Notes: generated by a model not told the origin, from the sequence alone. Counted from the first letter of the stretch, positions 4,108 to 43,636 are shown. The stretch: DNA of 64,000 nucleotides from Raillietiella orientalis (GCA_036172245.1 JAYWIR010000029.1:496001-560000); one strand, 5' to 3'. Made by a program: numbers and translations.

Positions 4108-4198
4108 GTCTTTTATCATGATATTTTCTGATGCAGCCAGCCATTACAAGGATCGTATGCCCAGAATTATAAAAGAATCATTGGAATGGAAAATAAAG
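4108..4198 (+). CDS. Probable upstream exon, vWA-domain segment (SFIMIFSDAASHYKDRMPRIIKESLEWKIK)
   Basis: ttgtag acceptor, aag|gtagag donor, phase 2 to 0. Resembles the hemicentin/VWA7 vWA segment GSFIYVFTDA..KD......LIQQK (from recall). Confidence 0.55.
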
Positions 4199-5759
4199 GT
4201 AGAGAAAAAATTCAATGAAGTAGATTAATACACTGTAAGCATCTGACTTTGAGACATCATCTGAATTAATAGAACTTCCTAAATACATCAGAACAGAATA
4301 TGAAATAAAATATCGTATGTCACTCGAAGGTGATATCATTCATGACAGGAACACCAATCCTTATCAGAAAAGCCCCCTCCCCCCAAAATGATTCCATATT
4401 CACTTTAGATGTAACTTGTGTATCAAAAATTAGGATTACTTTAAAGATTGAAAACATATATATCATAAATAAATTGAAACATACATGAATAAAATGGATC
4501 ATTTTACAATTGCAGACGTTGAGGCCAGGCGCTTTTTGCGAAATGATTTTCTGAAGCTTCTTCCATTGCTGACGCTTTTCCGAATGAGCTTTGCATTCTG
4601 AAACGGAACTAGAATGCCTTCTACTTCAATTAATTAGACTAGAAAACTAGTATCACCTCAGTATGTTTTTTTTTTTTTTTTTTTTTTTTTTTACTAGTTT
4701 CCATGCTGCAATGGAGACTTCTCAAGTAATGCCGATTTGATTTTACGATGCCGACTCTTTTCCCTCGCAGCATCGGAAGAACAAAATGCCACTCAAACGT
4801 CACTCGAGCGTTCCGAATTTCAACGCGTACATATAAGCAAAATATCCCATGTCTCTGTTATACATACATCTATGATTGGTATCGGTTTCACGTGCAGTTT
4901 CATAGATTTACAGTGTGCCACAGATGGTCTCTCCCCTATTTTAAGCAGTTGTTTTCAGAGTACAGAAGAGCGAAGTTGTCAATCTTATTAAGTGAAGATT
5001 TAACTTTTCATTAGAGGTTTTTTTTTTTTTAAAGAAAACATACTCCGTTGGATGCCTGAAACAGTGATGTGCACATGCAGTATAAGACACTGATAGCATA
5101 AGAGTGCTCTCGTATCAAACGGCTCATCTCCTCTCATAATACACAATCACAGATATAGGTTTCCCGATACAAAGATGGGTTTCCCGCTTAAAGGAATGCA
5201 CTGATGGTGTAGAAGCTACTGGATTTGCATATTCGCGTTCTTCGATCACTCATGAACAACGTGCATTTGTGAACGAACTCACGGATTCTTTCATACATTG
5301 TGTATTGAGCGTTGAACACTTTACCTCTTTATCCTCTTGTCTTCCTGAGAACATGTGGGTTCAAATTGGTCTCCCACAACACTGTTCTGAAAATGTTACT
5401 AACACGAATCGCAAATTTCGCTCACCCCAGATCCTGCATGTTTAATATTCCTATTTGCTCTCAATTGATTTTGCATAGTTGGATAATTTACATTTCGAGC
5501 TAGACATTCTGCGTGGAATCTTACAATTCTTCTAGACACTTCTAGACATTCTTTTAGGTACTAAATCAAACTAATAAAAGTAATACGTGTGCACTTCACT
5601 CTGATTTATGTCATGCTTGTCAACCATTCAGTTTTCACTCATTTTTTTAATTTTGGATTTCTGCATTGAATGCAAATACAGCTTTATGCAAAACGCGGTT
5701 TTCAGATATTTTCATGATTGATCGTTTGGATGATTATTGTAGGAATTGAGGAGACAACT

Positions 5760-6240
5760 GGATAAAAATTTTTCATCATGGATGATTATGCCTTAATGAT
5801 TCATTTCTTTTCCAGTCTTCAGTATTTAATGCTTGCATAAGCAGCGGGAGAAAGTGCTTATAATCGATATTACGTGCTAAATTATCAGCAAACTGTGTGC
5901 CAGAACCATTTTCTTTAATTGTATTTAATAATGGATCTTTCAGTGGATTATTGATATTGATTGTTAATGTTTCTTTGAATGCAGTATTTGTTCGTACACA
6001 TGAGCGAGTACTCTTCAAACTTTGGTGAAATGGTCCATGACCTAATGCGTTCCACTACTTCCCTGGTGTTTGCAGTTGATCATAATACCAATAAGATCCA
6101 CAAAGTAAGAGTTTCCCTCATAATGCTGAAGACGTTTCAATCTTTTTTGTAATAGAAACTTCCCTATAAAAAAAAAAAGAAAATCCATTTTCTAGTGCAT
6201 TCAGTTGTGTCATCATACCAATATTTGGTTGCAATATTCT
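5760..6240 (-). mobile_element. Decayed Helitron-like Rep/helicase linker fragment
   Basis: Translated pieces YFV...HGP...AFKE...GSGTQF resemble the Helitron RxYFV...KGPTSF...TFKEA...SGxQLR pattern. Contains stops and frameshifts. Confidence 0.4.
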
Positions 6241-6749
6241 TATTCTTATTAGTGTTAAATTCAAGAGATTGAAACTGCAACTTCAAGTCAGTACGATTCC
6301 GTCATTAATACTCCTATTAATACGTTAAAGTGAAAGCAGATCTCGATTTGAGGATTCGCACGTGACTGTCTTGGAATAAGGTTTGCCCGCTTCTCGTCAC
6401 TTTTTGTGCAAGCCTTTTGGAGTCCGAGATCATTCGTTAGTGAAAGCTCAGAAAGAATGAGTTGCTGCTTAATGAGTTCCGCACTTACTATGATGCCGTG
6501 CGAGCGAACGTGTTTTGAAGGAATGGATGAGCCCCCATTTGAGAATATGTGTTCAGTACATTACAAGCAACATGGTGCCGGATTGATTAGCTTGTTTGCT
6601 GGGTTCGTGACGAATGGGGTTTTCATATGTTTAAGGAATATTTTCAGCATGTAAGAAGTGTGCTGATGACCACGTGGTAAAAGTTTTCCAAATTCTAAAA
6701 TTTGAAAACACAGCTTTAGGTTAACGCATCACAAGATTTCTGGTTTTCT

Positions 6750-9198: not shown

Positions 9199-9622
9199 AC
9201 TCTCAACGATTACGTCGTTCAGGTTCATTTATACGCAGATTTAATCCATTACGAAGTAAGCACCGAGCGCAAAAGTTTTTCTTATGATATTGACGGCACC
9301 ATTGAAAATTACACATTTGTTTTATCTTGTTCGGAAATCGTATCTTCTCATATTGCTCCTGGTGAAACTAACTTGGTTATGCATGAGATGAACGCCACCT
9401 TTCAAAAGCCAACTTTTGGCATTGAACAAATGCCCACTGATTTCGGGAAAATTGTGCATACTGAACAAACTCCTGTCGTTGGAAAACATACAGTTGCAGT
9501 GCTGTTTGAGAAAAAGCTCATATGTTACTTCCAAGTCAGAGGATTTGGAGGATTAGAGATAGATGGAGGGTTTGGACACTCGCCGATTCCATTGACTGAT
9601 GCGATTCCTTTTCTTCCAACAG
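9199..9622 (+). CDS. Exon, hemicentin/VWA7-like beta-sandwich (TLNDYVVQVHLYADL...GKHTVAV...FQVRGFGGLEIDGGF...FLPT)
   Basis: ttttag acceptor, cag|gtatga donor, 141 open codons, phase 0 to 1. VHL..D, F..D.....T..LS and G..TV....V.G...I..GF patterns as in the hemicentin region after the vWA. Confidence 0.8.
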
Positions 9623-12600
9623 GTATGAAATAACTGAATACATATTTCGTAGTGTGTTTCTTTCCTTAGCGCAAAGATCCAATAAGCTTATGCTCCTATT
9701 TACATGTGTGGTTATTGTCTATGTTTTTTACAGATATACTTTATGATGTATTTTGACTCTCATCAAGTTAAAATAAAATACCCATAATTTTTATTCGATA
9801 TATGGTTTTTGTCTCCATGAAAAGCTCGAAATATACATTGGTAATACATACACGTAAATACATTACAAATGTACGTTAGAATTCCAACGGGAAAACTGCT
9901 AATGTTTTGGAAACGAAAGGCGATCTCCGTGGGACATCTGTACCACTGAAAAAATCTCTCATTGTTGAATCAGATACGGAATGAAGTAGGAATGATCACT
10001 GTACACTGTGAAGATTTCTCCCTATCCACGTGTATATAATGCCAATAGCGTATGCTGGGAAGCGAAAATGTGAAAATATTCGTTTTTTCATCAACTTGAC
10101 GTATCGTACCACAGGAGCACTGGCGTACCATTGGAGTGACGAAAAAAACAGTAGTAAAGGTTGCCTTCTCTTTGGAGTATGCTATTGCTTACAGTGAAAA
10201 GGCGACTATCGGTTCTATATTTGTGGCGACCTTCATGTGAATTTCTTAAGGCACCAGCAAAGAACGCTGAAAGCAAATGAAAAGAAGCATAAGGTGTCTT
10301 GCAAAGTCATGGTTAGATGCTTGAAAGGGTTGCAAGTTTGAGCTTTCCATCAAACTTTAAGCCAGAACGGAAATCTGCAACTAAATTATCAAATGCTGTC
10401 CATTTGTAGAAGCACAACGAAAATGAATCTCAAGACTCACAACAACGTGTGATGGAAAGAATGCTCTTCTAAAGAAGGAAACGATGGTTTTTCAAATAGT
10501 TCTCTGACTTCGTTCTCTAGCAAAGGTTTTCTCATATCTGAGCATGGTATGAGATAAATCCAAAAGGAATGCTGAAAATTTCGATGACTGAGACCGGGCA
10601 TGAGCATTATTTTAGGAAGAGCTCCATCAAAAGTTTAAAAAGTATCAAACCGTGATTCATAGAGTAAGAGCACACGATCTAAAAAGGTTCCAGAAAACAG
10701 TGCTGTGGCCTCAAAAATATTCTACTTTTACAGAGTGGAGAATTTCTATTTTCCATAAGGATTACATACCAACTCGACGAGCCTTGCCAGAAGAGTCCAG
10801 TAGCCTTGCCAGATTGAAAGTACGCGGATCGGATGTCAAGAAACACCATTAGAACGGAATGTGAAGTTTCGAAACAAAATTTTTTTGCTAAATTAGCACT
10901 GAAAGAAGCACAGTCTAATGTCCAAGGAGTGGCTATGCTAGCAGTATAAATTTCTAAGGCCACTTTTCGTCATCCATGACACTTTTATCATGCTACTTAT
11001 TGATAGAGTGGCATTCTGTTTTTGTTTGTCCTTTTTGTAGGAAGTCGTATCCATGTGCATTTCACGTTTTATCGTATGTGCAAGTGTTGGAATCGTGAGT
11101 TTAAAGACGAGTTATTGCACAAAATGAAGCCTTGGATGGATCATGAATACCACTGCGGCTCTTCTGAATATCGCAGCCACAAGTCAAGGAAATGCTTAAA
11201 AGCTTTTTCAATGGAAGTCAGGTTCCTGGTAGCTATTAGGAACGAGAGAGCCTTATCTCATCTGTCTTCAAATCATTAGGAGACGTATGTTCCAGCAGGA
11301 GTGCGGTCACAGGATGATCACTTTTCAATCTCTCACTGACGTGTCTCCAATTATTTTTCATGATAATGATGTTGTGCGCAGAGATATGGAAAGGGAACAC
11401 AAGTATATAGTGCTTTCTGTTGTGCAGAAATAGTCTCATTGCGTCATATAATTTCAGTTGCTTATTTATCGGTACATGGAGGGTAGACATCTGTAGACAA
11501 GGGCCTATACTGATATAAAGGATTCAAAATTCTATTATTTGCAGTAACTAAAATCATTTCCGATACTCTTTCTGATACTAGAAACTAAAATCAAAGAAAT
11601 ACCCTCAGCCTTACTGATGTTTCTTCACTGTTTTGACGAACCATGCGCGGTGTCGTTACCGCGTTATACAATGCCTGTTGTTCGAATGGAAGAAACCAGG
11701 TTATCTGTGTACGCATGACAGATCTGACGGGAAATCGTCGATTGATGTGCATGCTTGCACAAATCAACGTGTCGTCACCACATTGAAGAAATGTACTCTA
11801 CGAAAGCGCTTGGCAAGAGGTGGTCCGGGTCTCTCAGGAGAAGACATCAGACATGCAAACAGAAAGGGAAAATCACAGACCAAAGTTTGTCGTTGAATGT
11901 TTTGGCACATAAGTTCCTGATTCGGGAGCTGTCAGGAAACTTCTGTAACGCATGTTTGCCTTAAATGTTCAAACGTCGTGTAAACTATGGTCTCTAATGG
12001 AGTGCATGATAAAGAATCGCTTTTCGGTGAAAACTTCAGAAAAAAGTGAAAACAGCCAGTGGAATAAAATATAATTATTGGATGGTTACAAACGAAAGAG
12101 CGACTCATCTATTCTCAGGAATGACCAACATGGATTACTTTCTCTATCCAACTCCATTTGATTTTGTCAAATTCATTTCTTCGGTTCAAATCTATGACCG
12201 GGACAACATTTTGAAACTGGAGATAATGAACCCCTCGAGCGACCCTGAGTATAAGCTTTATATAGTTGGTGGTGTTTCGATCGACTATGGTTACGTAAAG
12301 GTACGTTTTTCTGATTCTATACTCTACATGGAATACGAAAGGACAGAGTAAATTATTTCTTACACTATTAGGAAACAGAGAAATCAAATCAAGTCTAGGC
12401 GTGATGAAACCTTATGAGTTCAGTGGAAATTAGCGAATGGGAATATGGCACTTGTTCGCGGTCGAGATTGCTAGCACTTTATATTTGATCAGTAACAAAA
12501 AACTGAGCAAGCAAACAATTCTGCATCATTTAGCACGGAAACGAACGCTGAATTTTCCAGGTGACAACTCAGTGTATCGAAATTCGAATGGCAACTGCAC

Positions 12601-15600
12601 AATGATTCGATGATGCTATCTGATTATTTGCCCGCATTTCTTGTTGTCTCAATATCTGCCGAGTTGAACTTGTGATGCAGACTTGATATTTTCCGTGTTT
12701 TTTTTTTTTGTCCTTTGCCGTTGTTGTTGCATTCAAAGCTTTCCCAGAAGAATGGAGCCTCTCGAGTCTTACCTACGAGTACTGCGAATCTCCGCCAAAC
12801 TAAACTGCTCTAAACTCCTCTAGAAACTGAAACTGATTGATTTTCGAATCCAGTTTCAGGTTAGTACTTGAGACTGAAATGGAAGCCAGAAATGGTTTCT
12901 CTTGAAACGCAGGGTCAGTTCGGAGCAATATTTTGAAAATGTACTTGATTAGAAACAGAACTGACCACAGATGCGAAAAAAGTTACCAATCTTCCAAACA
13001 CGAATTAGCCGAGGTTAACTCGATCACACGTATTCATTGCATTTGTAATTGACAGGTATGCTGCAATCCACGTTGCCATCTTTTGTACGAATACCGTAGG
13101 TTTGCCATTCCCAACGACAGCAAAAATTTGCACACGAATTCATAAGGATGTGCGTCAATCCGAATCGTCTGAAAATAAAATGTGTAAATATGTATATCTC
13201 CTGAATACATGACGCCACACTAATGTCTCTGTTTATTTGTACTTTGGAGAAGGAATTTATTTTGTGCTTTTGGGTATTGCATTTTGGCTTCCTTCGTGTC
13301 TAAAAGCAACCCACAATGCACATTACTTACTCTTCTTGCATGTGATTCGCTTTGCCTACTTTCTTTCACTGAGCTATTCAATAACGAATTCGGTTGATGA
13401 CCGGAAGAACTATCGTATAGCTCTTCAAGCTTAACAAGGTAAAATTGCATTTCCGCCATACACTTTTGTCCTGTTGGCCAGGGTCGCCAAGTTTCATTGC
13501 TTCACTGATGTTGCAACGATGTTTTTTCCCACAAAATATTTCTGCTCCTGTAGGTCAGAGGAGTTACTTCTGGAGGCACACCGTTTATACGACAAGTGGA
13601 AACTGCGATACGCATTATCCCTCACAAAAGTAAGAATTCAGGCAATGCTTTTTTATGGAACTTTACGATAATTTCTGCCTCCCAAATGCGTGGAAAACAT
13701 GATTCTCCTAGGTTATCTTGCCCTTTGATTAACGTATGTGATATCAGATTTAGAGGAGGATATCACATCAGGAGGACGAAAGATTACTTTAAGGTTATTT
13801 TCCGTATGAAGACTAGTCGAATTACTGACTTGACGATGCATGAGGTGCACAATCAATACATAATCCTGACACTATCTTTTTGCAAACAACGAAAGATATT
13901 ATTTTCTGATAATCAGACATGTTTTTCTGAGGTGTTCATCAACATGCTATCCTTTCATTCTATCTGCATTACAATATGAGTGCAACTTTCGAAAAGAGTC
14001 ACTTTGGTGTGACACCAAGCCACTGAAACAAATGTTGGTGAATCTCATCATCTCTCATTATGGTTTGAAGATTCTGGAAAAACCTATTTTTCTTATGGAG
14101 GTATGGAGAAATCAGATTTCGATTTTGATTCAGGAGAACTTCGGAGTGTTTTCATGCTATAAATTACGCCACTGAGATTCTGAACAGGACTTTATGCTGA
14201 AAATCGGATCCGTCACATCAGTATTGAGCGAAATCTCTTGCTTCAAAGCACCTTGCTCGATTGCAGCTCGTTCTTCATTTATCATCTTCAGAGATACCAC
14301 TCCTCACGAAGCTTCCCTTGCCGCAGTGCAGCATCCTCACGTTTTCGGAATCGGGAGGTCTTTTCCTATCATATCAACCACGCATGGTTAGCAAGAGAGG
14401 GGAAACAAAACTCTGCAATTCTGCAACTCTGCGACTGAAAATTATCAAAAGCCTTTGTGCTTTTTTTCATTGATGCACAATTTTGTAACTCCGAATTAAG
14501 GGAGATGATCTGACCACGCTCTTGACCGTTGAAAAAGAGAGCATTTACAGAACTACCATTCTCCATAGGACAAACTGGAGGAAATTTTAAGATTATTCTC
14601 CATATGAAGACTGGACGAATGCATTGCTTCTTACGATCCTTTCTCAAAAGCTTGCGAATGTTGCGTTGGCTCAGTAATGGGCACGGTATCGGTGAGAAGC
14701 AGAATTCCTATGCATGGAACTTTTCATTCTAAGATCAAAACAACCATGAGACATCACTATTGCACGAGCATGTTTCGAAACGGTTGGCTGATCATCCCTT
14801 GAATGACTGCAAAAAAGGGTGCAGAATGGGTCAAGTTTGCCTTCAACTCTTCGCTCCCAGTGAATTCTGAAGTGGCAAGAGGCTCGCGCCTGGAACGCAT
14901 TCGGTTAGCAAATGAAGCCATGTTTGTCAAGTTTTCGAGCTTCGAACGTCAGCATGTCGGAATTCCACGATGCGCAAAAACGCAGGAAGTAAGACTTTTT
15001 CCTCCATAAGACTCCGCGTAATTGTGGAAAGCCTGGTAAGCTCTCCATCCGTCTCCTCATTACCAACTTATTATGCATATTCCTCTTTACATTGGAATAC
15101 ATCAGTGTTTGATGCTTTTCACAATATCACAGGCATAGGTTTTTGCAAACTATTCCAAACTTTTCAAAATTGAGGCTTTTTTGTTTCAGCAGAGAATACT
15201 CTGCGGATCCACATAAATCTAATAACTACAAACACTGGGATTCATCTCTTTATTTCCAGTTGAAGCCAAAGCCAAAATAATATTTCCTCCACAAATGAAG
15301 AGTTGGAACACAACGTTATTTTGTACTGTGCATTCTGATACACCTTTCCAGGCTTATTTTGGAACAGACAAAAGTGCTCGGATGATTTCTCATGCGTAAG
15401 ATACAAAAACTCTTGGCGCTAAACTGTTTGAACGCACGCCAATAAACCAATGATCACCGTAGAGCTGAAGAGTCGCCTCTTTACTTGAGAATAAGCGGCC
15501 GTCTTACAGATCTTTCAAACAAAACATATTACTGTAAGGTGCAAAACGATCAAGGATACAAGGAAGTGTCAAGGGAATTCATACCAAAATGTAAGCAATA

Positions 15601-18600
15601 CCATTTCTGTTCGAAGGTGAATAATTGTATCTGCAGATGATCCACGATGCACGAAAGTAGATACAATTTCATTTAAGACAGATTGTCATGAATCTGCAAA
15701 GTGGACCGCAGAATACGAAGAGTCGGAAAATTGCTACAGTCCTTGTATGTTTTCCTTGGTACTTCCAAATGGCACATGCTCTGTCAGGTAGATCCAAGTT
15801 TATCCCTTTGAAATAGACATGCAAAAATTCTGCACCTTAAAGTTACTTCAACTAAGAAAAATCTTGCGCTTTGATTTGTTCTTCGTCTATCCGTGTGATA
15901 GGCAAATATGCTATCTTTGCCACAAGTAATCATTTGTCTGAACAAGTGAGCGAATAAAGGCAAACTTCAATCAACATTAGCCAAATATTTGGAATACTGC
16001 AAAATGCACTTGATTTCCCAGCGTTCCGATACTCTTCGGCCGTTGCTAAAATGCGATATTGCTTTCATTACCAGTAGTAACTTGAATCAACATTTAAGCC
16101 ATCATAACTACGAAGGCTCGTCATTCTAATAAATGTGAGCGCTTATATTGAAAAGTGTGCACACAATACTGTTCCAAAATCTACATTGCATCATGGCAGA
16201 CAAAAGACGCGTTATGGAGCAATACCTCGATCTTGCACTATGAGAATATCGGGTGCTAAGAAAGCATACATCATCGTATGAAGATACATGGGTGTATTTT
16301 CTTTCCCTTCGACGGAAATGATATTCACTGCATCCTTATTGAATATGAAGATCGAGTGTAATTAGTCATTTTTTTTTTTTGAATGCATGGGTAAAGAAAC
16401 GATCAAAACAGAAGGTAAGCAATGTGTACAAGATCAACAACCTAAAAGAATGGAGAATCAATTTGAAACTGTTTTGCATCCAAATGACCACTGCATGTAT
16501 GAGATTCGACATGAGAACTGAATTTTATCATTCGCATTAACTTTTATTTAGTTTTGGAATGAAACTTTGTAAAAAAAAAAAGAAAAAAAGGTTCTGCAAA
16601 AGAAAAGCAATATTCGAACACAGTATCGGAATGAGAATTATGTAATGTAGGTAGAGAGACTTTTTCCTTTTTGTCCTTCCTTAAATGATGAATCCACGTC
16701 TGGTTCATCGAATAAGGTCGCAATTCGCTATTTCCAATCTCAGACGCTCCTTAATAGTAAAATGAGTAGGCAGCCACGCTGAGTGTTCTCTCTATTGAAA
16801 TCATTCTCGTGCGGCGCTCTATTTCTTGAAACAGTTTGAAACTTTGAAGCTTAAAAATGATAAAAAAAATTCCTTGCTCCATGCAAGCGACACGACGAAT
16901 CATGCAGAGCGAATCGAGCAGAACCTAAAAAAATATATATCCCATCGTGTTTTAGCATCAAATTCATAAAAGCAGAAATGGCTTCCGGACTTTATGAGAC
17001 CATGGCATGCTTCTCGGGTCAATCAATATCCTTGGAGCAACAGGACAAACGGGTGGACAAACAGCACATAGTTTGTGGGAACAAAAGTGGAGAACAAGGT
17101 AAGCAGGCGCGCTTCGCGATGAAGTCGAACGTTAGCCCTCTTACGTTGGGAAGGGCAGCCTGCACGTTGTCTGGACGCTCCTGTGACGTGTACTTGCGTT
17201 CTCACAAGGAGTTGAGGCAGTAACGCGGTCACTGCTGCCTCTGTCCCAAGAAGCAGCGGAAACGGAATCACGATTCGGGAAGCGAAGTCAACTTGTTCCA
17301 CTTCTCCGAACGGCGCAAGGGATTCCGATCCACTTTCAACCTAAAAGTCTATGAAAAATTCGCAGCTGAATTCCGGAAAACCCATGGATGGCAGCACATT
17401 TTGGAAATGAACTGCTTCCCTTGTCTTATTTTGAAAAGCACGCACGAAAAATGCGAAGCTGAGGCTGTGCAACGGTGTACGCAAAAGGGACAGACCTGCT
17501 AAACGTTGCCGTGGATTATTTCGTTTTCTTCTACGGCTCTCAAACTCTTCAGTCTACCGTCATGCTTTGTGACCGAATGTTATCCCGAAGGAAATTTGCA
17601 CAGTAAGGGAAACTAACGGACACAAAATGGTGTCCAAATACACTGGCAGTTAAGAAAGGATCAAGGAAGCTCGGAAACTGAGGTTTTGTTCTGGGCCTGA
17701 AGTCCCCTTTCTTTTTCTGACGCAAGAAGAAGGAAAAACCTGGTTTTCAATTCCACTCAAACATCGGATTCGGAACCACTGCTGGCAGACGACGATTCAT
17801 TTGGGGAAACTTGGAAATGAAAATGGGTTTCGAGAGTGAACATATGGTTGAATTTCAGATCAAGCTTACTGGTTGCATTTGTAGCAAGTGCTGTTTAAAG
17901 TGCGCTCACAATCGAAATAATAGGTTGCTATAAATACAAAATCATGCTCGGATTGATCTAGAAAATCGTGCTTAAGGCTTGGCATTAGCAACAGCAAATA
18001 AATATCCCCGGTCCATTCAGAAAAGCAAAAGAATGCTCTGTTTTGTGGAGTGTAGCGAGTACCGTGGATACAGTTTTTGCCACTGTAAGTAGAATGGCAA
18101 CGCAATTTTCACTGCATCTCAGAAGAGCACCTAGCAACGGCTTTGTGCTGACTAGGTGCAGACAACATTATACCATCTAAAACAGACATCCAAGCACACA
18201 GTTTCCAAACACAAATATGCTTGCATCGTATTCAATTAATGCACTGGGCAATTAGAGATCGTTCCAACGGAATCCACATTACAATTATTCAGAGATGATA
18301 AGCGAGATTTCACGAAAGCAGTTCATGAAAACCGAAATTCTGTTGCCTGTTTGTGTTGGCTTAGAGAAAGATCGCGGTCTTGAGTTGATATTGAGGACAA
18401 ACCCTGAAAACTGAAACCGAGGAGAGTTTTGCAAACTCAAACTACAATTAGGGAAAGTGAGGTTTCTTCTTATTATTTTTTTTGATTGCTCAGTATGAAC
18501 TATTATTTCCTTTACTTTGTACAAGCGATATCATGCTGATGAACTCGTGAAACTTCGGCTAGAACTAGTTGCCGTTCTACTCTACTAATGTCTCTGCTTT

Positions 18601-30600: not shown

Positions 30601-33600
30601 GAGCAAACTGGTGATGTACTCTCCTGAAAGTGGAGGAAGGTGCATTTGCACAGCTGCTGCAAATGAAACAGCAAGACCGCTGAAAGTGCTTAGTTGGGTT
30701 GCTTTCATACAATCCTCAACAAAGGAAGAGAATGATTCATGCTTGCCATGCTCTAACAGTTCGTTCAATGGTGTTGATCGCATGAGGCAAACGATGTGTA
30801 AAAACTGGATGACGATGGATGCTTATAGAGCCACCCTCATTCTGGAGGAAACGTTCGCGCCCAGTCTTGGAAAATCTTTCGACTCCCACATTGCAAAATT
30901 TTCTTCCTGAAGTTTAGTTCCTGTATCATGATTTGGGAATTTGAAGTGAAATACCAAGGACGTTAAAGGAAATGTGCTCTTGATCGTTTTTGTATGCACG
31001 CTGAATCCAGCTGCAACCTCGTACCTTTTCAAATCATACAAATTATTCAAGTGCGACCAATGTGTAACAAAAGCCTGTATTCGTTTTCAGTGTATCTGGA
31101 AGAAAAATGCCCCTCCCTCCCATGGCATTATGCGCCCTCTTGTCCCTGCTCGTCTCCCAAAGATTGCTCGTCTCACATGTGCAAGGGTGGAAAATGCAGT
31201 GAGCTCAAAAGTCTTCCTACTTGTTGCCATCTCTTGAAAAATTTATTAATGTGATCAAGAATTTCACAGAATCCCGAAGCGATTTTCAGTTTCTTTTCTC
31301 GAACTGTCTTCTTCTTCCATGCAAAAGTGCGAATCTCGTGAAGCAAAATAAAGTTCGAGAGGAACCGAAGAAATCCTTGTCATTTCAGCCACTTGTTCTG
31401 GAAGAGGTCGAGACGTCAACTGTGACTGCTTCCTGCCTGGAGATTGCAGACACCCATTCACCTGTGATTCGAATACGCATGTCTGCGGTATGCTCTCATC
31501 TTTTTTTCTGGGTGGCATTCCCCCCCCCCCCCTTTTCGTATTCCATTCCAGTGAGTAATCTTGCTCCAAAAACAATGATACATACAGACAGAACTCACAA
31601 TGAAACGGATTCCATGCATTCCAGGATGGGAACAAAATAACTCATAATGTTTGGGCTTGATTTCCAAAAAAAAAAAAAAAATTCGTTTATGTTTTCTTTG
31701 CTCTGTCGAATGAGCTTCGACCACAGAAACAGTTACATTGCTAGATGTCATGTGCTTTTTTCTAGTTCCAGATTGTGATTCATCACTGAAATCCCCGGGA
31801 TGTAGCTGCTCCTCGAATGCTGATTGCCGAAATGGGGAATGCAAGAGAAACATATGCGGTCAGTATTAATAAATTTTGGAGTTGAAAGCAAAGAAGCATT
31901 TACTTTCTGTAGCGAAATAAAAGTTTCCTTTGAACCCGAGGAGAAGAAGCTGTTCTTTTCTCGAACTGCTTCATTCGTATTGAACACTCCTGCACGCTAA
32001 CCCTAAATTCTCGGCGAGAACACGCGCGATTGAATTCTTTTGAGTGTAACTGCGTTTATCAGTTCCGACGTAACCACAGCAACTTTATGAACATTACGGA
32101 AAAGGAACGCTAAAAGGAAGTTGCTTGCTGAAACGAAAAACTGGTGACATCTTCGCCTTTGGAATTGTCTGCGTAGAACCTTCCTGGTCCGCTCCTGGCT
32201 TCGTATTCTCGGGTCTTTGTTGAAGGACTCCTTGGACGCTTCGAGATGAAGGCGCAGAATGCTATGCTTTTCGAAGTTTGCCTCCGATATCTGTTTATAA
32301 CAAGAGCGTGATAATCAAATGCCTTTGGGAGCAGCCCAAATGCTCGCTGGAAGATTTGCTGTACATCGTACTATGAAGCGCGCTTGTTCGAAGGGCACCG
32401 CAGGGAGTTACCATGTGATGGTTGCGTTGTCTCCTTTCCGGGAGTTTAGGTTGGCCTGCAGATCGGTTGACCGCTGCCAAGGAACCAGCGTTTCGGTTAA
32501 GCATTTAGGCATGCCGATTTGGTTTTCAGTGGTCTTGTTTGAAAAAATTCGTTCACAGGCTGCTCTAATGGGTCATGAGCAAACTGGAGACATGATCACA
32601 GATCATGATCATCTCATAGCCACGCTAGGGGACTAGCTTTCTTGTATCTTTGGCTGTGTAGATAAGGTGGTTGGATTACAATCAAAAAGCTGGTGTACTC
32701 TGATGCCTGCTTTGTTGCGTACAAAACTTACTAATAATGATTCGCAATTGCAGCATTTGTGTCGCTGTATTTCTTCGTGGCACAGGGAGGGTTGCTGATT
32801 TCTTTCTTTCTTTTCGATTTGAAAGAAAGAAAGCGGAAAATGGGCTGTGTTTAAGATTGTTCTTCCTTGGGATGCAAGAGAAAATTCTAGCCTTCTGCTC
32901 CATGAAGACCCACTGCTCCGCTCATGGTGCTTCGAGCGCGCATCTCCCTCTATCCCCTTTCTCAGAACTCACATCACGTATTATATGTTACGTATTTGTA
33001 AGTTTCTCTCACGAATTCATGAAAGAGTCAGGTAATGATCCAATACTGAGGTAGATGTTAGACAAAGACGGGCTCATTTTGAATAAGAAAACGCAATTTC
33101 AGCTTGGTGCACAAAAAAAGGAAAATACAGAGGATGCACTTGCAGTTTAACCTCCGAATGCGGCGGACTACTCGTGTGCATAGCCAATGTTTGCGGTAAG
33201 GTTTCCGATTCTGTCTGCCAAATTGTATTGACGGCAGAAGAATCCTTATTTCGGTGTGTGTGTTTGTGTGTTTCACTGATTCTTGAACATAAGGTAACCG
33301 TTTCACTGAAAGCAGTCAAGGTACGAGTGTAGAGCAGTGTTAATGTCGTTATGATGCCAAAATCGAAAGCATTGATAAGCCATTCCATGAACTGCTGTGT
33401 CTTAGTTCCAGATTGCTCGAAAACGCCGCTTATATCTCTCTGCAGATGCAAATCACCCGCAGATTGCGCAAGTGGAGTGTGCCACAGTGGACTCTGCGGT
33501 GAGTAGCAACCGACTTCTTCACCGTAAAAAAGTCTTCGATCTCGACAACCTGCATAAAGCACGTGAGGAACAACATGGCCTCAGCATGATCGATGATCCT

Positions 33601-33717
33601 ATCGAAAGGATCGAGCTTGAAAGTTTCAGAGGAGAGACTGGGTGGACGGTATGCCTGAAATGAACTGTATTACCAGCTGCTCAAACTGACGTTCTTACGT
33701 TGAGGTGGACGAAATAC

Positions 33718-33777
<60 letters not shown>

Positions 33778-36700
33778 TACCAGAAAAATTTTGCTCAGAT
33801 AAAAAGTTTTGAGATTTCCACCAATTGGCTTAAAATTAGATAGCTATGGCGCTTTGTTCTCCAAGCTTTCAAAACAGACCCAATGAATCGCACGAATGTG
33901 ACGCACTTTTCGAAAGAAGATTTTAGTAAATGCGATAATAAATAAGGCTTTTTAAGAGACTTAAATGCAGAAATTGGAAATTCGTCTCGAAAAGGGGAGA
34001 TCGTCTCACAAAATCCCGCATAGCAAGCACACTCTCGACTGAATGTGGAAAAGCAGTTGCTTTCCAGGAGTTTCTAGGTAGACGCGAAACATTGAATATC
34101 AATGCTTTTAAGCGAAAAAGACATTTGTTGGCAAACTTGATGAAAGATGCAAAGTATCGGAAATTATTTTTTCAATGGATGTATCTTTTTGATGTACTTG
34201 CCAGCTCCCTGCTCGAAAGAGATAGGAGAAACGAACTGCGCATGTGCTGCTCCTGATGATTGTCAGGGAAGATGTGATGCAATAACAGCAACTTGCAGTA
34301 AGGATCTTGTTTTCAAAATTTGAATAATGCTGCGTCCCTCCCCATGTGCATTAAAAATGACTCCTTGACCGTTAGCGAGGTGCTACAAATGAACCTGCAG
34401 GTTCCTACGGGAAGTACTGTGCGAATCCTTTGAGTGATTGTGACAGAGTCACCCGGATCGCTTGAACAGTTTGCAAAATTCTTCCTTTCCATTTCACATT
34501 CTTTACTCTTCTCGTTTCCGATGAGTTTGTTGAAACCCTTCAGAACAACTGTCAGGCAGAATACGGATCCATGAAAGTTTTACACAGCATGCTCTGTTCT
34601 TTCCAGTTAACTACTGCACCACCGGAAAGCATTTGCAAAAAGGAGGGTCTTGTCCTACAGGTCATTCCTGTGTTAGGACAAGTACGAAAGGAATATGCGG
34701 TAAGCGTTCTTTGGTTACAGACTCCCAGATCAATTCGTTCTTTGCAATCAGACTGTAGGCTTGGCTAATAGACACTTAAATCAGAATCGGGCGAGAAAGG
34801 ATCCTTGTTTGCTTCTTATCGCTGTAATGGTTCATCTTTCTGCAGATTTATAGTTTGCCTGCAACTGCTTACTTGCAGGTATAGATTTGCGTGATTTCGG
34901 GCAAGTTGGGTATACGTAGGTGGCCGTCATGCAGCAGCACGAACTAATGGTTTTTCATGTCATTTCATACAACCTGTTTCTGCCTCAGTCCATCACACCA
35001 TGTTCATGTTTCTGAGCATCACCTTTTTTCTTCTTCTTCTTCTTCTTCTTCTTCTGGAGGGGGGGGGGGGGGAATCAATTACGATGAGCTCATGTTTCGA
35101 AGCTGAGTTGGAATTTTTTTTTGGCTTCCCGTGCTTTCTAATTTGTCGAATATGCATTACAACTTCTGAAATGACGCGATTTTTCGTTTTCAACTTTTCC
35201 ATAATTCCTGTCTTCCTGCGACTACATTCGAGCCAAGTCGTTCGTTATTGTTTTCCATTTGATTGTACTGATCCTTCTTTTGCAAGTTCCCTCTGCTGCG
35301 TGCAAGTCGACGAAAAGCACATGCCTCTGTCCTCATCCCAAGTGGTGCAGCGTGGGCTGCTCTTGTGGTACTCCGCATGCTGATCAGACGCATTCAATAA
35401 ACGAGTCTCCCATCTAGCGAAGTGTGCGTATCCAGCGCCGAAATACTGTCCGTGTTCGGTTCCTTCAAACTGTCTGGGGAAACTGATCTGCAGATACTAC
35501 GACGACTTCAGCGGGGTTTGCGGCAAGTATCCATCCATCAGAGAGAAAGAACTGAATAGTTGATGAATTGCATTGTGAAGACGATGCATGTACAAGTACC
35601 GTGTCATTCCCGTACTGCCCTTGCAAGTCCAGTTTCCAGTGTGCAAGCGGAACGTGTATCCAGGAAACTTGTGGTAGGAGGGCATCTTTCGATTCATTCG
35701 TGGAGGTTTTCTCTCTCTCTCTCTCTCTCTTTCACTTGATTGATGATATCACTTTTACCATTTGTCATGCGAATGAGAAAGAGGAAACTTTTTGTAGACA
35801 TTTGCCGCGGAGGAAATCGCAAGGAATACTGCCAATGCGAAAAGCATGAAGACTGCGAGAAATCCTTGAGATGTGTAGAGGGAATATGTAGTGAGTAATG
35901 ATGTTTTCTACATCCAAGTCTTCGATCTTCCACCAAGTGATCGTCGGAAATTCAATTCTGTTGAGATTTTTTTTTTTTGCCTTCGGGTGCGATGAGTCTC
36001 ATCAAGATCATGAGCCTACGCTCATGCACTGATCCCAATTCCACATGCCAGGAATTCTCTTGCTCAGTGCGAATCTTAGCAAGCACGAAACTATGGGGTC
36101 GATTTTTTTGGTCATGCAGTCGAGTAGTAACGAACAAAACTGTGTGTCTGCCTCTCATAACTCTGATTTGGAGTATTCAAACATCCGTTAACGACAAATG
36201 TGGAAATGTAAACTTGAGAGCAAGTATTTTACCAGCATCCGCTTAACCCACTCGGGCTTGTCTTCCGCACTCCTACCTTGCCAGAGCTTCTGAGTGTGAA
36301 GCCACTGGCAATATGATATTCTAGGTCGCCTGATATGCCCACCAAATCCTCCATTTCCTCCGGAGTGTGACTGCATTGAACATTCGCAATGTGCTTGTGG
36401 AGTATGCTACAAAGCGAAATGTGGTAAGTGGCTAGAATTTTCGAGAACACTGCCTTCTCCGGCCAATCGTTTACCGCAACTTTGTCATCAAGTCTTCTGG
36501 TCTTGAACTTTTTAAATCTCACTCGGATTCCCCGTCAAGAAGCACAAACAAGTGCTTACTGCTTTCATGGTCATGAGGAAAACTAGTAATAACCCGATCG
36601 CAATGCTGTTAGATGCTGTCGCGATGCAAACGCGCTTCATGTTTACGTGTTGGGCATTCTAACGAGCAGCACTCCCAAGGGGAAATACGTGTACGAAATT

Positions 36701-39700
36701 TGGAATACACAGTAGTTTCCTCTCTTCACTTTTTGATGAAATGATCTCGCTGACAGTTACAGCTTCCGATAAGTGTGGCAAGGAACAGTGCAATTGCAAG
36801 GAGGATGCTGACTGCCGCGGAGAAAGCATCTGCAGCAGATGTTACTGCCGTAAGTTTTCAAATGCTGCTCTCCCTGGTTCTTCATGTGAGATTCAGGAAA
36901 ATGCCAATACGCTTTCGCCCCTGGATGCCCTTGTAGCAACTCTCGTCAGTGTGAAGGGGTATGCAACCTAAGCGAGCTGAAGTGCACCCCAGGTAGAGAA
37001 AAATTGCACATTTTGTATTTCATTCACTTTCAACGAAGATGAGAAACGATCTCCTGCAGCGAGTGCACCGACTGAACGGTTTGTCGTTTGCAAAGGCCTT
37101 GCCTTCTTAATCCATGGATTCGAAACGTGACAAATGAGAGATTCGCGCGCTTGCCGTAGTAACTTTGAGGACCTGAAGCGCGCGCGCGTTTCCCTCTCAA
37201 ATCCCCGAGTCATCTGCCTTTCAGACACGCTCTGCAAATTCATCGGAGCTCCGGGATGCCCTTGCAGCAATAAGGAGCAGCCATGTCGACATGAATGCGT
37301 GACTTTCAAAAGTTTCAGCTTCTGCGGTAAGGGGCTGTTTGCATTCAGAATCCTTCTTTCCATTCTGACTGTGATCAGTCTGGAAGCATCGCGAGCACTT
37401 TCCAATGGCAACCAGTTTCGCTTCCCGTTTCTTCCGCATGTTGCGACGAAATGACGCAGACACCAATCTCAAACTCTTCTGTCCGTAGGAAACTGCAAGA
37501 AACCACCTTTCAGCCCCTACTGTCCATGCAGCAAGCCCGATTCTTGCAAGAGTTTGCAGTGCGTGGACAAATTCTGCTCTCCGGATGACAGTCAGTACGC
37601 CGATTCGGAACTTCCCGATTCATACTGGCTTCCTTTTCCATGCCAGGCGCGTGTGCAGCGATGGCAGCGAAACCGCCCACGTGTAGGTGTGCACATCCCA
37701 GTCACTGCCTGAGGTCACTGTGCCTCAACAAGACATGCGGTATGAAAAGTTGCTTCCTCGTGATCAGTTCTTTTCAGAAAATGTGCGTGTTCAGCCTTTG
37801 AGGAAGCATGCTCGCGTGGAGACACTGAGGGATGCCCCTGCGACAGCTCGAAAGCTTGCGGAAAGAAGGATTGCCTTGCGGTTTTCGACGACCTCAAGAA
37901 ATGCACTGGTACTGAATGGGTCTTGCTGTTTCCTCGGAGACTGTTGTTGTGTTCAGTGTGTCCCCGAGGCGGTGGTTGTCCTTGTAATCCCGAGTGCACG
38001 GTTTGCATAATCCATCCAAGAGGATACATTTGCGATGGAGGTTGGGCTCAACTTGGTGCATTCCATGCTTTGAATTTGTGTTTCCTCATTCCTGCTGCTT
38101 CGGCTGGAAACTCGAAATCCTATCCTGTTTAGGAATTTGCCAGCAGCACGTGAGACCTCCCGGATGTCCCTGCACGAATCACGAGGAGTGCGAGGAAAAG
38201 TTCTGTAGCGGGAAAGCATGCGGTAGGATTCGCTTTCACGAGCTGTGGAAGATGGGCGAACTCTTTAGGCTGTTCGCCACCTTACCCGGATGGGTGCACG
38301 TGCTCCTCTCCGGAAGAATGCTTCAACATTTGCGAAAGAAATGCGAAAACAGGGTTCCTTAGTTGCGGCGGTGCAGGTACGTGGTCGATATGCTGCGGGC
38401 TGCCAAAAATCTTTGGGAGTGTGATTCTGCGCGATTTCCCGCAAAGGGAGTAGTAACTCAACTCACCTTGTATCGTAGCCAAGTGTTCGGGAAGAAAAGT
38501 GGACGGGTGCTCTTGCGTGTCGGATAGGCAGTGCATTTCCAATTCCTGTGTGAAACCTGAGCCAACATCGGCGTTCGGAACATGCTGTGAGTTGTTCAAC
38601 TGGGTCTGCGTTGCAGTTAAGACCATGGCAGCCCGTGAAAGACTCGAAAACATTTCCTCGTCAAAACGAATCCGCCCTGTGCTGTTTCCGTTTTCAGCAG
38701 CGCTGCTCCTCCTTCTTTCACCAAGCCTTCATGGAGATGTCCCCTCTGAAACTGCTCTGATTCGATTTCGATTCCTCAGTTTTTCCTTCTAAATTCCAAG
38801 CATCGCGGTTTCCCATGTAACAGGTTGATTCCGTTCCCTGCAGCTGGCCGGTGTCGCAGATTCCTTGTTACTTCACCATACGTGGGGAGCGAATGATCTA
38901 ATGATTAAGCGATAGTGGCTGATTAACCCAAATGCGATGTTGCAGATCCACAGTGCAATGTGCCCCTCAAATCGCCCTTCTGCGCATGCAACTCCCCAAA
39001 AGACTGCAATCATAACGTATGCGGCAGACAGCAGGGTAAAAAAGTATGCGGTACGCACTTTTCATTCTTTACCACTTTTGCAAACACAGAACAGTCGCTC
39101 GGCTCAAGCGGTGCACATTCCTTTCTTTTCATTCCAGTGAATTGTGTTGCTGCCCCCCGACTTCCTGGCTGTCCGTGTACTTCCAATGCGCACTGCAAAC
39201 ACCATTGCAGGAGGCGCCGGTGCACAGGTATCGTGAGGGCTCCCGCACTCTTTTCTTCCCCCTCTTCCTATTTCTGATATTCATCCTTTTGGGCGACCTC
39301 TGTTAGTGTGGGAAAAAAGCTTTTAACTCTGGAAGAGAAGTTGCTGTATGTATTCGAGCCACTTCCCCATTGCCCTGCATCCCCCCTGCCCCCCTCAAAA
39401 AACAAAAAAAATTAAAAAAAAAAACATGTACACCGCGCTTGCTTCCGCATTTTTCTTCCCGACTTTAAGAGTTCAAGTAAACAACGTTCTTTGATAGCTC
39501 ATTCCAGACTCCGGCTGTTCCAAACAAAGGTGGCGGCCGAGCGGTTGTCCTTGCAGAACATCGGATGAGTGCTTCTCCGGGAAATGCGTTCCGAGTGAGT
39601 CGGCAAAAGGCTTGAGTTGTGCAGGTAGGATGATGACGCTCATTCATTCGTTGTACCGAGCACCGCTTCACCGCCGAAGAGAGGGGGAAAAAATGCTCCA

Positions 39701-43636: not shown

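What the first reader, a model, noticed from the sequence alone, without database searches (positions are those of the whole stretch)
4108..43636. Unusual domain architecture: hemicentin-like head, CUB, Cys array, EGF, TM
Seen: exons at 9199-13629 carry, in order, motifs matching the region after the vWA domain in hemicentin/VWA7. Three exons then form a CUB-like domain, followed by the array, an EGF domain and a TM helix. Known: hemicentins are secreted matrix proteins in which this head is followed by a long Ig array and EGFs. Inference: here a Cys-module array replaces the Ig array and the protein is membrane-anchored. I do not recognise this combination, and it suggests a lineage-specific adhesion or recognition receptor built by exon shuffling.
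Basis: partly seen in the sequence, partly recalled or inferred. Interest (0 to 1): 0.8.

Follow-up and report, generated by a model that had tools for sequence, protein, structure and literature searches.

The report
Membrane protein with 36-module cysteine stalk
This looks like one very large animal-type gene for a cell-surface protein whose long stalk is built from about 36 small six-cysteine modules, one per exon; the stalk, an EGF domain and a membrane anchor hold up, but the claimed hemicentin-like head and CUB domain could not be confirmed.

Summary
The cysteine array, the EGF domain and the membrane helix are confirmed. At least 36 six-cysteine modules (C-x7-9-GCPC-x5-C-x3-4-C-x4-5-C) lie on the + strand only. 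Each sits on its own 84-117 nt exon in intron phase 1/1. An EGF exon follows (Pfam EGF, E 4.9e-6), then a hydrophobic exon.

The module matches no Pfam family and no relative in three large protein searches. With the paralogues as alignment it folds confidently (pLDDT 88.5) into a small knottin-like knot.

I built a 52-exon, 1,944-codon open model. The gene starts upstream of 4108 and runs off the window start.

No tool result supports hemicentin/VWA7 or CUB. Pfam, the PDB sequence search, phmmer against 1.84 billion proteins and the Atlas returned nothing relevant. Exon-by-exon tests have little power, and I could not submit a spliced protein.

No RNA data were available, so the link between head and array rests on frame and strand continuity alone. 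Novelty: a new variant of the mosaic adhesion-receptor kind. Interest is moderate.

The parts
82..128 (+). First head exon visible in the window (47 nt, enters with 1 base of a split codon, leaves with 1). The gene continues upstream of the window.
   Evidence: Acceptor ccctag| at the 92nd percentile, donor CAG|gtgaac at the 76th. Frame-compatible with 1850. Weakest of the head exons.
1850..1985 (+). Head exon (136 nt) encoding ...HGGDEFPE...
   Evidence: Acceptor gtgtttag| 94th percentile, donor AAG|gtatgt 95th. Frame fits 128 and 4108. Its VWA-like look is my recall only; there was no Pfam or PDB hit.
4108..4198 (+). Head exon (91 nt) encoding ...FIMIFSDAAS...
   Evidence: Acceptor 97th percentile, donor AAG|gtagag 79th. 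No Pfam hit. The PDB search gave only a designed protein.
5985..6104 (+). Head exon (120 nt, phase 0/0).
   Evidence: Acceptor 93rd percentile, donor AAA|gtaaga 98th. Frame fits 4198 and 9199.
9199..9622 (+). Largest head exon (424 nt, 141 codons), predicted all-beta.
   Evidence: Acceptor ttcttttag| 98th percentile, donor CAG|gtatga 89th. No true relative in 1.84e9 proteins. No Pfam hit at E<=10. AF2 without an alignment gave pLDDT 40, strands only.
12119..12347 (+). Head exon (229 nt).
   Evidence: The only candidate in the 9.6-13.6 kb gap that converts phase 1 to phase 2 as both neighbours require. Donor 96th percentile, acceptor 83rd.
13559..13629 (+). Last head exon (71 nt).
   Evidence: Acceptor 94.5th percentile, donor AAA|gtaaga 98th.
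15260..15395 (+). Ig-like domain, first half (...LFCTV...).
   Evidence: Best acceptor in the region (99.8th percentile), donor 98th. Frame fits 13629. The one PDB hit at E<=10 is a T-cell receptor alpha chain, E 0.29.
15463..15590 (+). Ig-like domain, second half (...LYLRISGRLTDLSNKTYYCKVQNDQG...).
   Evidence: 9 of 9 PDB sequence hits at E<=10 are Ig domains (titin E 0.14, antibody heavy chains). In the alignments printed for the best three, the YYC motif pairs with their YxC/YYC. Donor AAT|gtaagc 97th percentile, acceptor weak at the 47th.
15637..15744 (+). Alternative donor at 15782. Read-through reaches a TAG at 15789-15791.
   Evidence: Acceptor 92nd percentile, donor 95th. No CUB hit in Pfam or PDB.
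17977..18084 (+). Possible middle exon of the unassigned region (108 nt, phase 1/1). Uncertain.
   Evidence: Strong donor ACT|gtaagt (99th percentile) but a weak acceptor (76th). A second reading in another frame from 17989 is possible. No Pfam or PDB hit in either frame.
19052..19150 (+). Last exon of the unassigned region (99 nt, phase 1/1).
   Evidence: Acceptor ttgttttag| 94th percentile, donor CAG|gtaaga 98th. No hit.
19996..20130 (+). Atypical Cys-rich exon (9 Cys) that opens the array.
   Evidence: Acceptor 97th percentile. Donor at 20130 is weak (9th percentile). The stronger donors at 20088 and 20121 make a TGA when joined to 21251, but they work with an acceptor at 21260.
21251..42469 (+). 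Array of 36 six-Cys module exons: 21251-21343, 21402-21494, 21533-21625, 22983-23075, 23175-23267, 24794-24886, 25435-25530, 28282-28374, 28885-28977, 29180-29278, 31091-31198, 31389-31487, 31766-31858, 33103-33195, 33406-33498, 34205-34297, 35581-35673, 35798-35890, 36325-36423, 36757-36849, 36897-36992, 37225-37326, 37489-37590, 37647-37739, 37795-37908, 37957-38040, 38133-38222, 38269-38370, 38479-38586, 38946-39050, 39138-39227, 39508-39594, 39762-39878, 41627-41719, 42183-42290, 42365-42469. One further module at 35423-35521 has unclear splice sites.
   Evidence: All are phase 1/1 and all are open. 35 of the 36 were aligned (37795-37908 was not); Cys columns are conserved while non-Cys identity averages 13%. 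AF2 with the paralogue alignment gave pLDDT 88.5.
42754..42861 (+). EGF domain exon.
   Evidence: Pfam EGF PF00008, E 4.9e-6, 27.1 bits (cutoff 21.5); EGF_2 E 3.3e-4. Acceptor 97th percentile, donor GGA|gtgagt 99th.
43043..43138 (+). Transmembrane exon (...FTIIILTFLGIVSLLLLAAAILWFLV...).
   Evidence: The only stretch of the model with Kyte-Doolittle mean >1.8 over 19 residues. Acceptor tttcctttccag| and donor AAAG|gtttgt were read from the DNA. The scores printed were taken one base off.
43329..43636 (+). Possible last exon (cytoplasmic tail, stop at 43634-43636). Uncertain.
   Evidence: One of three frame-valid endings: splice to 43329, splice to 43288 (stop near 43377-43379), or read-through of the TM exon donor (stop near 43417-43419). 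Acceptor only at the 76th percentile.

Best explanation
One large + strand gene of an animal-type genome, with at least 52 exons and 1,944 codons inside the window. Its 5' end lies beyond the window start. It encodes a type-I membrane mosaic protein.

From N- to C-terminus the window holds:
- a globular head of about 370 residues;
- one Ig-like domain;
- about 110-150 residues of unassigned Cys-containing sequence;
- at least 36 tandem six-cysteine mini-domains, each on its own symmetric phase-1 exon;
- one EGF domain, one transmembrane helix and a short tail.

Inferred mechanism: each module is a small disulfide-knotted (knottin-like) unit. Strung together, the modules form a long, stiff, protease-resistant stalk that holds the head and Ig domain far above the membrane, as in an adhesion or recognition receptor. 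The array grew by duplication of a phase-1/1 exon. The duplications are old, because only the Cys scaffold and the GCPC turn are still shared.

Shown: the array, its exon structure, the EGF domain, the hydrophobic anchor, the open frame-consistent chain, and the confident module fold. Inferred: that head and array are one transcript, the stalk function, and the ligand-binding role of the head.
For: - Strand-specific array: 30 regex hits on + against 0 on -.
- Each module fits a 84-117 nt AG...GT exon in phase 1/1.
- Six conserved Cys columns against 22% mean column identity and 13% mean non-Cys identity. No DNA direct repeat of 40 nt or more in 19-44 kb. This is conservation of a scaffold, not recent duplication.
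- All 36 module exons are open.
- Module model: pLDDT 88.5 (two of five models near 88). Its best structural neighbours are small disulfide-rich knots.
- EGF above the Pfam cutoff.
- One hydrophobic segment only.
- Head exons have splice sites mostly in the top 2-24% of all AG/GT sites. Four junctions that I picked for their motifs, before checking frames (128|1850, 1985|4108, 4198|5985, 6104|9199), are all frame-compatible.
- The Ig-like exons link 13629 to 15637 in frame.
- No ATG plus signal-peptide-like exon with a phase-1 donor lies between 13.6 and 21.2 kb that could start a separate array gene.
- The full chain of 52 exons reads 1,944 codons to a stop.
Against: - No transcript evidence.
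- The link region at 15.7-21.2 kb rests on exons with one weak site each: the acceptor at 17977 is at the 76th percentile and the donor at 20130 at the 9th.
- I chose several exons because they fitted the required phase, so the open chain is not an independent test for them.
- Reading through the donor at 15744 meets a stop at 15789-15791. That would end a 511-residue secreted head protein.
- Head and array differ in G+C: 0.35-0.41 against 0.41-0.49.
- The 141-codon head exon has no true relative among 1.84e9 proteins, a low language-model recognition value and pLDDT 40.
- A codon model trained on the modules does not separate head exons from random open ORFs. It does not separate the TM exon either, so it lacks power.
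- The 3' end is ambiguous.
Confidence: 0.55

Rival explanations
1. There are two neighbouring genes on the same strand. The first encodes a secreted head protein (head plus Ig-like domain plus a short Cys-rich end) that stops at the TAG at 15789-15791. The second is a membrane protein made of the Cys array, EGF and TM, whose first exon I did not find.
For: Read-through of the donor at 15744 gives an open 511-residue product that ends at 15789-15791. Exons between 15.7 and 21.2 kb each have a weak site. G+C differs between the two parts. A candidate exon with good sites (19318-19441) does not fit my chain.
Against: No ATG exon with a hydrophobic leader and a phase-1 donor lies between 13.6 and 21.2 kb. 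The donor at 15744 is good (95th percentile). The exons at 15637, 19052 and 19996 are all phase 1/1, like the array. AATAAA/ATTAAA near 15.9-16.1 kb occurs at background density.
Confidence: 0.25
2. The array, EGF and TM form a real gene, but the head exons upstream of about 15 kb are chance ORFs between chance splice-like sites. The likeness to hemicentin would then be pattern-matching by the reader and by me.
For: No Pfam, PDB, phmmer or Atlas support for any head exon. ORFs of 140-175 codons occur several times elsewhere in the window on both strands. The codon model shows no signal. AF2 gave pLDDT 40.
Against: Four motif-picked junctions are all in frame, about 1 in 81 by chance. Splice sites are mostly above the 90th percentile. 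The neighbouring Ig-like exons are recognised by the PDB search, 9 of 9 hits. That result shows a real extracellular-domain gene reaches at least to 15.26 kb, and it needs upstream exons.
Confidence: 0.12
3. The locus is a decaying pseudogene or an unexpressed relic of an exon array.
For: No expression data. No relatives found. One module (35423-35521) lacks a clean phase-1/1 exon. The 20088|21251 junction makes a stop.
Against: 36 of 36 module exons are open with usable AG/GT sites. The six Cys are kept while the other positions have drifted to 13% identity. That pattern means long purifying selection on the scaffold.
Confidence: 0.06

Closest known systems
Hemicentin (fibulin-6, him-4) and VWA7: the N-terminal VWA head and the beta-rich region after it
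   Same: By my recall of these proteins, not by any tool: short motifs in the window exons appear in the order expected for that head, namely GGD..PE in 1850-1985, F[ST]DA in 4108-4198 and GF..P near the end of 9199-9622. An Ig-like domain follows directly, and there is EGF near the C-terminus.
   Different: No profile or sequence hit to hemicentin or VWA7 in any search. There is one Ig-like domain instead of dozens, and no G2F or fibulin-type end was seen. A membrane anchor is present. A 36-module Cys array is unknown in those proteins. The first part of any VWA domain, with its metal-site motif, lies outside the window.
Small disulfide-rich knots: inhibitor-cystine-knot toxins and the colipase/Dickkopf/prokineticin fold
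   Same: Six Cys in about 30 residues. The module model superposes on omega-atracotoxin-Hv1a (Foldseek E 0.1, TMq 0.66), U3-scytotoxin-Sth1a (TMq 0.76; VIA Z 3.9, rmsd 1.6 over 27 residues), conotoxin, LEAP-2, a spinach trypsin inhibitor and colipase. Atlas leads point the same way: toxin families, and Dickkopf_N at 0.75, all below 0.9. A CxC step followed by x5-C is, by my recall, also seen in colipase-fold proteins.
   Different: None of the matches is significant (no Foldseek E<=1e-3, no Z>=5). The Cys spacing C-x7-9-C-x-C-x5-C-x3-4-C-x4-5-C is not the ICK pattern. Those proteins are single secreted peptides, not a 36-fold tandem array inside a membrane protein.
EGF-array receptors built from phase-1 exons (Notch, MEGF/Draper and tenascin type)
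   Same: Type-I membrane protein with a long tandem array of about 30-residue six-Cys modules, one module per symmetric phase-1 exon, plus a true EGF next to the membrane.
   Different: The modules are not EGF. 0 of 36 reach any Pfam EGF family, and the Cys spacing differs.
Integrin beta subunit (functional analogy only, from general knowledge)
   Same: A globular head carried on a stalk of small Cys-rich modules, then one TM helix and a short tail.
   Different: No sequence relation was tested or claimed. The integrin stalk has four I-EGF modules, not 36. Pairing with an alpha subunit is unknown here.

Membership tests
Hemicentin / VWA7-type head | VWA domain recognised by a profile | tested here: inconclusive
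   No VWA-type Pfam family at E<=10 for ORFs or exons 62-211, 1711-1992, 1852-1983, 4070-4225, 4109-4198, 5979-6149 and 5985-6104. No VWA chain in PDB searches of 1711-1992 and 4109-4198. The fragments are 30-45 residues, and the N-terminal part of the domain is outside the window. The same kind of scan also missed the Ig half-domain, so power is low.
Hemicentin / VWA7-type head | The domain that follows the VWA domain is recognised by a profile or sequence search | tested here: not met
   The 141-residue exon 9199-9621 should hold most of such a domain. It gives no Pfam family at E<=10. phmmer against 1.84e9 proteins gave 5 hits at E<=1e-3; by their sequences they are repeat proteins hit in 3-19 stretches each, and none resembles hemicentin or VWA7 (that library gives no names). 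0 of 122 word-sharing candidates scored E<=10. No usable Atlas hit.
Hemicentin | Long tandem Ig array, G2F and fibulin-type C-terminus, secreted | tested here: not met
   Only one Y-x-C Ig-type motif in a plausible exon upstream of 21 kb. One EGF. A hydrophobic anchor is present.
CUB domain | About 110-residue beta-sandwich with four conserved Cys, recognised by a profile | tested here: inconclusive
   No CUB family in Pfam at E<=10 for 15639-15782, 17979-18083, 17989-18177 and 19054-19149. Four PDB searches returned one unrelated chain and no CUB. The three exons give only about 105 residues, and the Cys do not sit in the usual CUB positions as I recall them. The pieces are short and the exon choice is uncertain.
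Immunoglobulin-like domain | Two Cys about 50-60 residues apart, with a Y-x-C motif in strand F | tested here: met
   LFCTV in 15260-15395 and TYYCKV in 15463-15590, read. 9 of 9 PDB hits at E<=10 for the second exon are Ig domains; the three printed alignments pair the YYC motif with their YxC/YYC. Each hit is weak (best E 0.14).
Immunoglobulin-like domain | Profile hit (Pfam Ig families) | tested here: inconclusive
   No Pfam hit at E<=10 for either half-domain exon. The domain is split by a 67-nt intron and could only be scanned in halves.
EGF domain | Pfam EGF above the gathering score | tested here: met
   PF00008: 27.1 bits against a cutoff of 21.5, E 4.9e-6, for 42756-42860.
Knottin / ICK and colipase-Dickkopf fold | Significant structural or profile match | tested here: inconclusive
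   Foldseek: 9 matches at E<=10, none at E<=1e-3. VIA-align wide: 7 chains with Z>=2, best 3.9. Pfam toxin families appear only at E 0.024-0.044 for one module of 36. The disulfide pattern is not known.
Type-I membrane protein | Signal peptide at the N-terminus and a single TM helix near the C-terminus | tested here: inconclusive
   A single hydrophobic segment near the C-terminus was found. The N-terminus lies outside the window, so a signal peptide cannot be checked.

The most novel reading that the evidence does not exclude
The 30-residue C-x7-9-GCPC-x5-C-x3-4-C-x4-5-C unit is a new family of extracellular knottin-like domain. It would be unknown to Pfam and absent from billions of catalogued proteins. 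Here it is used at least 36 times in a row as the stalk of a receptor that carries a VWA-type head and an Ig domain. That would be an independently evolved, much longer counterpart of the integrin-beta or Notch-type Cys-module stalk, with loops free to vary for recognition.
Probability: 0.3. Interest if true: 0.6.

Novelty: new variant of a known kind. Interest (0 to 1): 0.4.

Why it matters
If the model is right, this locus adds a new building block to the set of extracellular modules that animals shuffle by phase-1 exons. It would also show the longest tandem run of knottin-like units known to me in one membrane protein. The contrast between the fixed scaffold (six Cys, GCPC) and loops at about 13% identity makes it a natural case for asking whether such arrays serve as rigid spacers or as variable recognition surfaces. 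It is also a caution about method: the head and CUB assignments rest on recalled motifs that no profile search confirmed.

Tried and rejected
- Whole genome: none is held.
- RNA evidence: no RNA holder listed. One DNA run (X1) holds 0.05 of the sampled words.
I made no further attempt.
- Earlier findings of this scan: three look-ups returned nothing.
- Word-indexed protein searches:
  - exon 9199-9630, longer proteins of 253-2000 aa: 122 candidates, none at E<=0.01, and none at E<=10 on repeat;
  - module profile A2, 71-2000 aa: 639 candidates, none at E<=1e-3.
  - Orthologues longer than 2000 residues were outside these three searches.
- phmmer against 1.84e9 representatives: 5 hits. By their sequences these are repeat proteins whose score is summed over 3-19 stretches. 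I reject them as relatives.
- Atlas: no usable hit for the head exon. Only leads below 0.9 for a two-module ORF.
- JGI metagenome contigs: 120 pattern matches, none confirmed. The alignment query was not accepted.
- AF2 on the 141-residue exon without an alignment: pLDDT 40.3. I did not use it for fold search.
- Codon-usage model trained on the modules: head exons and the TM exon score like random open ORFs, so it has no power.
- Poly(A) signal search: background density.
- Complex prediction on the two Ig half-domain exons: verdict 'no answer'. This is no evidence either way.
- Rfam: no family.
- DNA direct repeats in the array: none.
- Literature: three full-text searches. I saw only the listings, found no paper on such an architecture among the titles, and read none.
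- Considered and rejected:
  - reading introns through with stops as X to join exons for Pfam, because a code should not be named for that purpose;

Full report
WHAT THE WINDOW IS

The window has 35-49% G+C over the finding and rises above 50% beyond 44 kb. It holds no prokaryote-style long genes. Instead it carries many short open segments on the + strand, bounded by AG and GT. No whole genome is held for it, and earlier notes of this scan hold nothing on it.

THE CYSTEINE ARRAY (CONFIRMED)

A simple pattern (CxC, then three more spaced Cys) hits 30 times on the + strand and never on the - strand. Around every hit there is an acceptor AG two bases before a codon boundary. There is also a donor GT one base after the last Cys codon, typically ...TGC G|gtaagt.

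Each module is therefore its own exon of 84-117 nt, most often 93 nt, in intron phase 1/1. Introns range from 38 nt to 2.75 kb inside the array and up to 3.1 kb in the head.

I aligned 35 modules. The consensus is x-C-x7-9-G-C-P-C-x5-C-x3-4-C-x4-5-C. Four Cys columns are invariant and two are present in at least 90% of rows, but mean column identity is 22%. Outside the Cys columns the modules share on average 13% identity (maximum 42%), with no periodicity along the array. No DNA direct repeat of 40 nt or more survives in 19-44 kb.

A profile made from the modules finds 34 hits with E<0.01 on the + strand between 21.2 and 42.3 kb and none on the - strand. That count is circular for the training rows. 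One extra module at 35423-35521 was not in the training set.

An old array whose scaffold is kept while everything else has drifted, with 36 of 36 exons still open, is good evidence of a functional coding sequence.

WHAT THE MODULE IS

None of the 36 module exons reaches a Pfam cutoff. Six of 36 give sub-threshold hits: EB, LEAP-2, Dumpy DPY, LDL-receptor A, late nodulin and two toxin families, E 0.024-0.94.

A search of the 5.8-billion-cluster collection with the module profile found 639 word-sharing candidates of 71-2000 residues, and none scored E<=1e-3.

With the 35 paralogues as its alignment, AlphaFold2 gives a confident model (mean pLDDT 88.5; five models 88.5, 88.4, 71.2, 58.0, 57.6).
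- Foldseek against the PDB returns nine matches at E<=10 and none at E<=1e-3. All are small disulfide-rich proteins: omega-atracotoxin-Hv1a (E 0.1, TMq 0.66), a conotoxin, U3-scytotoxin-Sth1a (TMq 0.76), LEAP-2, a spinach trypsin inhibitor, another spider toxin and colipase.
- A Foldseek-independent scan of 48,161 chains gives seven with Z>=2. The best is Z 3.9 (rmsd 1.6 over 27 residues), and again these are small disulfide-rich peptides, mostly knottin-type.
- Atlas leads for a two-module ORF are of the same kind and all below 0.9.

I read the module as a knottin-like mini-domain of a family not in Pfam. The fold assignment is suggestive, not significant.

EGF, MEMBRANE ANCHOR AND 3' END

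Exon 42754-42861 is a true EGF domain (Pfam EGF, 27.1 bits, cutoff 21.5, E 4.9e-6).

The next exon, 43043-43138, encodes the only strongly hydrophobic stretch of the whole model.

After it three endings are frame-valid:
- a splice to 43288;
- simple read-through.

I cannot choose among them.

THE HEAD

I derived splice-site matrices from the module exons and read the DNA at the sites.

I add 82-128, 1850-1985 and 5985-6104. Their acceptors and donors mostly lie above the 90th percentile of all AG/GT sites in 1-44 kb.

I first picked four junctions for the look of the encoded peptides: 128|1850, 1985|4108, 4198|5985 and 6104|9199. All four turned out to be in frame. That has about a 1 in 81 chance for random picks.

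The gene therefore starts before 4108 and runs off the window start. Its first exons are not in the window.

IS THE HEAD HEMICENTIN-LIKE?

From memory, several short motifs occur in the order I would expect for the VWA head of hemicentin/VWA7 and the region behind it. These are GGD..PE in 1850-1985, F[ST]DA in 4108-4198 and GF..P late in 9199-9622. That is a lead from recall, and two recollections of the same kind are not independent.

No tool result backs it:
- 94 + strand ORFs of 3.1-20.6 kb gave only chance Pfam hits below cutoff.
- 20 and 14 further exon or ORF translations at E<=10 gave nothing relevant.
- PDB sequence searches of four head pieces gave no VWA or related chain.
- The 141-residue exon found no true relative among 1.84 billion representatives. 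It had five hits, all with repeat-protein sequences hit in 3-19 stretches each.
- None of 122 word-sharing candidates scored even E<=10.
- There was no usable Atlas hit, with a recognition value of 1259.
- There were no confirmed relatives among 120 pattern matches in the JGI metagenome contigs.
- Its single-sequence fold is unusable (pLDDT 40.3, strands only).

The power of exon-by-exon scans is low. The Ig half-domain below is also invisible to Pfam at E<=10. The 141-residue exon is long enough to hold most of a domain, however, so for that feature I score the membership test as not met.

Between 13629 and 15637 lie two exons:
- 15260-15395, with an acceptor at the 99.8th percentile;
- 15463-15590, with a donor at the 97th percentile.

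A 67-nt intron separates them. They are in frame with both neighbours.

They encode about 88 residues with LFCTV in the first half and LYLRISGRLTDLSNKTYYCKVQNDQG in the second. All 9 of 9 PDB hits at E<=10 for the second exon are Ig domains (titin E 0.14, antibody heavy chains). In the alignments printed for the best three, the YYC motif pairs with their YxC/YYC. The single hit for the first exon is a T-cell receptor chain (E 0.29).

The Cys array does not simply replace an Ig array, because one Ig-like domain is kept.

THE 'CUB-LIKE' REGION

Exons 15637-15744 and 19052-19150 have good sites. The exon between them is uncertain. It could be 17977-18084 in one frame, or 17989-18084 in another frame combined with a donor at 15782.

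Pfam at E<=10 and four PDB searches return no CUB protein. The roughly 105 residues and their Cys positions do not look like a canonical CUB to me. I leave this region unassigned. The test is inconclusive and the claim is unsupported.

ONE GENE OR TWO?

Evidence for one gene:
- The strand is the same throughout.
- All linking exons are phase 1/1, like the array.
- I found no ATG exon with a hydrophobic leader and a phase-1 donor between 13.6 and 21.2 kb. Across 1-44 kb 14 candidates were listed, and only one, inside the array at 25305, has such a donor.
- A 52-exon chain reads 1,944 codons without a stop.

Evidence against:
- I chose several linking exons for their phase.
- Each of two linking exons has one weak site.
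- Read-through at 15744 stops at 15789-15791, which would give a 511-residue secreted protein.
- G+C differs between the two parts.
- There are no transcripts.

I put one gene at about 0.55 and two genes at 0.25.

MECHANISM AND COMPARISON

The best reading is a type-I surface protein in which at least 36 disulfide-knotted modules form a long rigid stalk. The stalk presents a globular head and an Ig-like domain. The design is analogous to the Cys-module stalks of integrin beta subunits and to the EGF arrays of Notch- or MEGF-type receptors (general knowledge, not tested). The array was made by repeated duplication of a symmetric phase-1 exon.

It is not a member of the hemicentin family as that family is defined: it has no long Ig array, it has a TM anchor, and it has no profile hit. 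Whether its head is a remote homologue remains open.

I rate it a new variant of a known kind, the mosaic adhesion or recognition receptor, built on a module family that appears to be undescribed.

LITERATURE

Three full-text searches listed nothing on such an architecture. I saw only the listings and read no paper.

Noticed in passing
window 46418-48750: About 2.3 kb of T/C-rich low-complexity DNA (GC skew -0.55, AT skew -0.68). Degenerate tandem units of 24-254 nt give long spurious F/L/S-rich ORFs.
   Followed up: partly
window 63562-63930 (+): A fragment of a reverse transcriptase (Pfam RVT_1, E 4.9e-5, 23.6 bits, below the cutoff of 29.6). Probably a decayed non-LTR retroelement.
   Followed up: partly
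window 21494-21533, 36849-36897, 37590-38269: Very short introns (38-58 nt) sit next to introns of 1-3 kb in the same gene. Together with tttcag acceptors this points to an invertebrate-type genome. I did not try to place it further.
   Followed up: no
window 19232-19591 (+) and 19318-19441: An ORF with a signal-peptide-like stretch (...KLLFLLPLFLWAAQVSVFA...) has no in-frame ATG before it. Within it, a candidate exon at 19318-19441 has good splice scores (8.9 and 6.0) but does not fit the phase-1 chain. Unexplained. It could belong to an alternative transcript.
   Followed up: partly
window 9256-9402 (exon residues 20-68): The best phmmer hit (P0001) aligns its roughly 95-residue tandem repeat (...DADGTIESY.W...) to ...YDIDGTIENYTF... 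of the head exon. From recall, that repeat looks like a PKD-type beta-sandwich. The score is summed over 19 repeats, so it is not evidence of homology. It may hint that this exon encodes an Ig/PKD-like sandwich.
   Followed up: partly
window 35423-35673: Two adjacent modules whose clean phase-1/1 exons cannot both be drawn. The donor at 35558 leaves a 22-nt intron, and the donor at 35526 is phase 2. One of them may be skipped, shifted or decayed.
   Followed up: partly
window 33714-33775: An (AT)n microsatellite, 15.5 copies of ATAT, in an array intron.
   Followed up: no
window 36000-44000 versus 4000-20000: G+C rises along the gene from 0.35-0.41 in the head to 0.49 at 36-40 kb, and to 0.49-0.57 in most of the sequence downstream of the gene. 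Introns shrink in the same direction.
   Followed up: no
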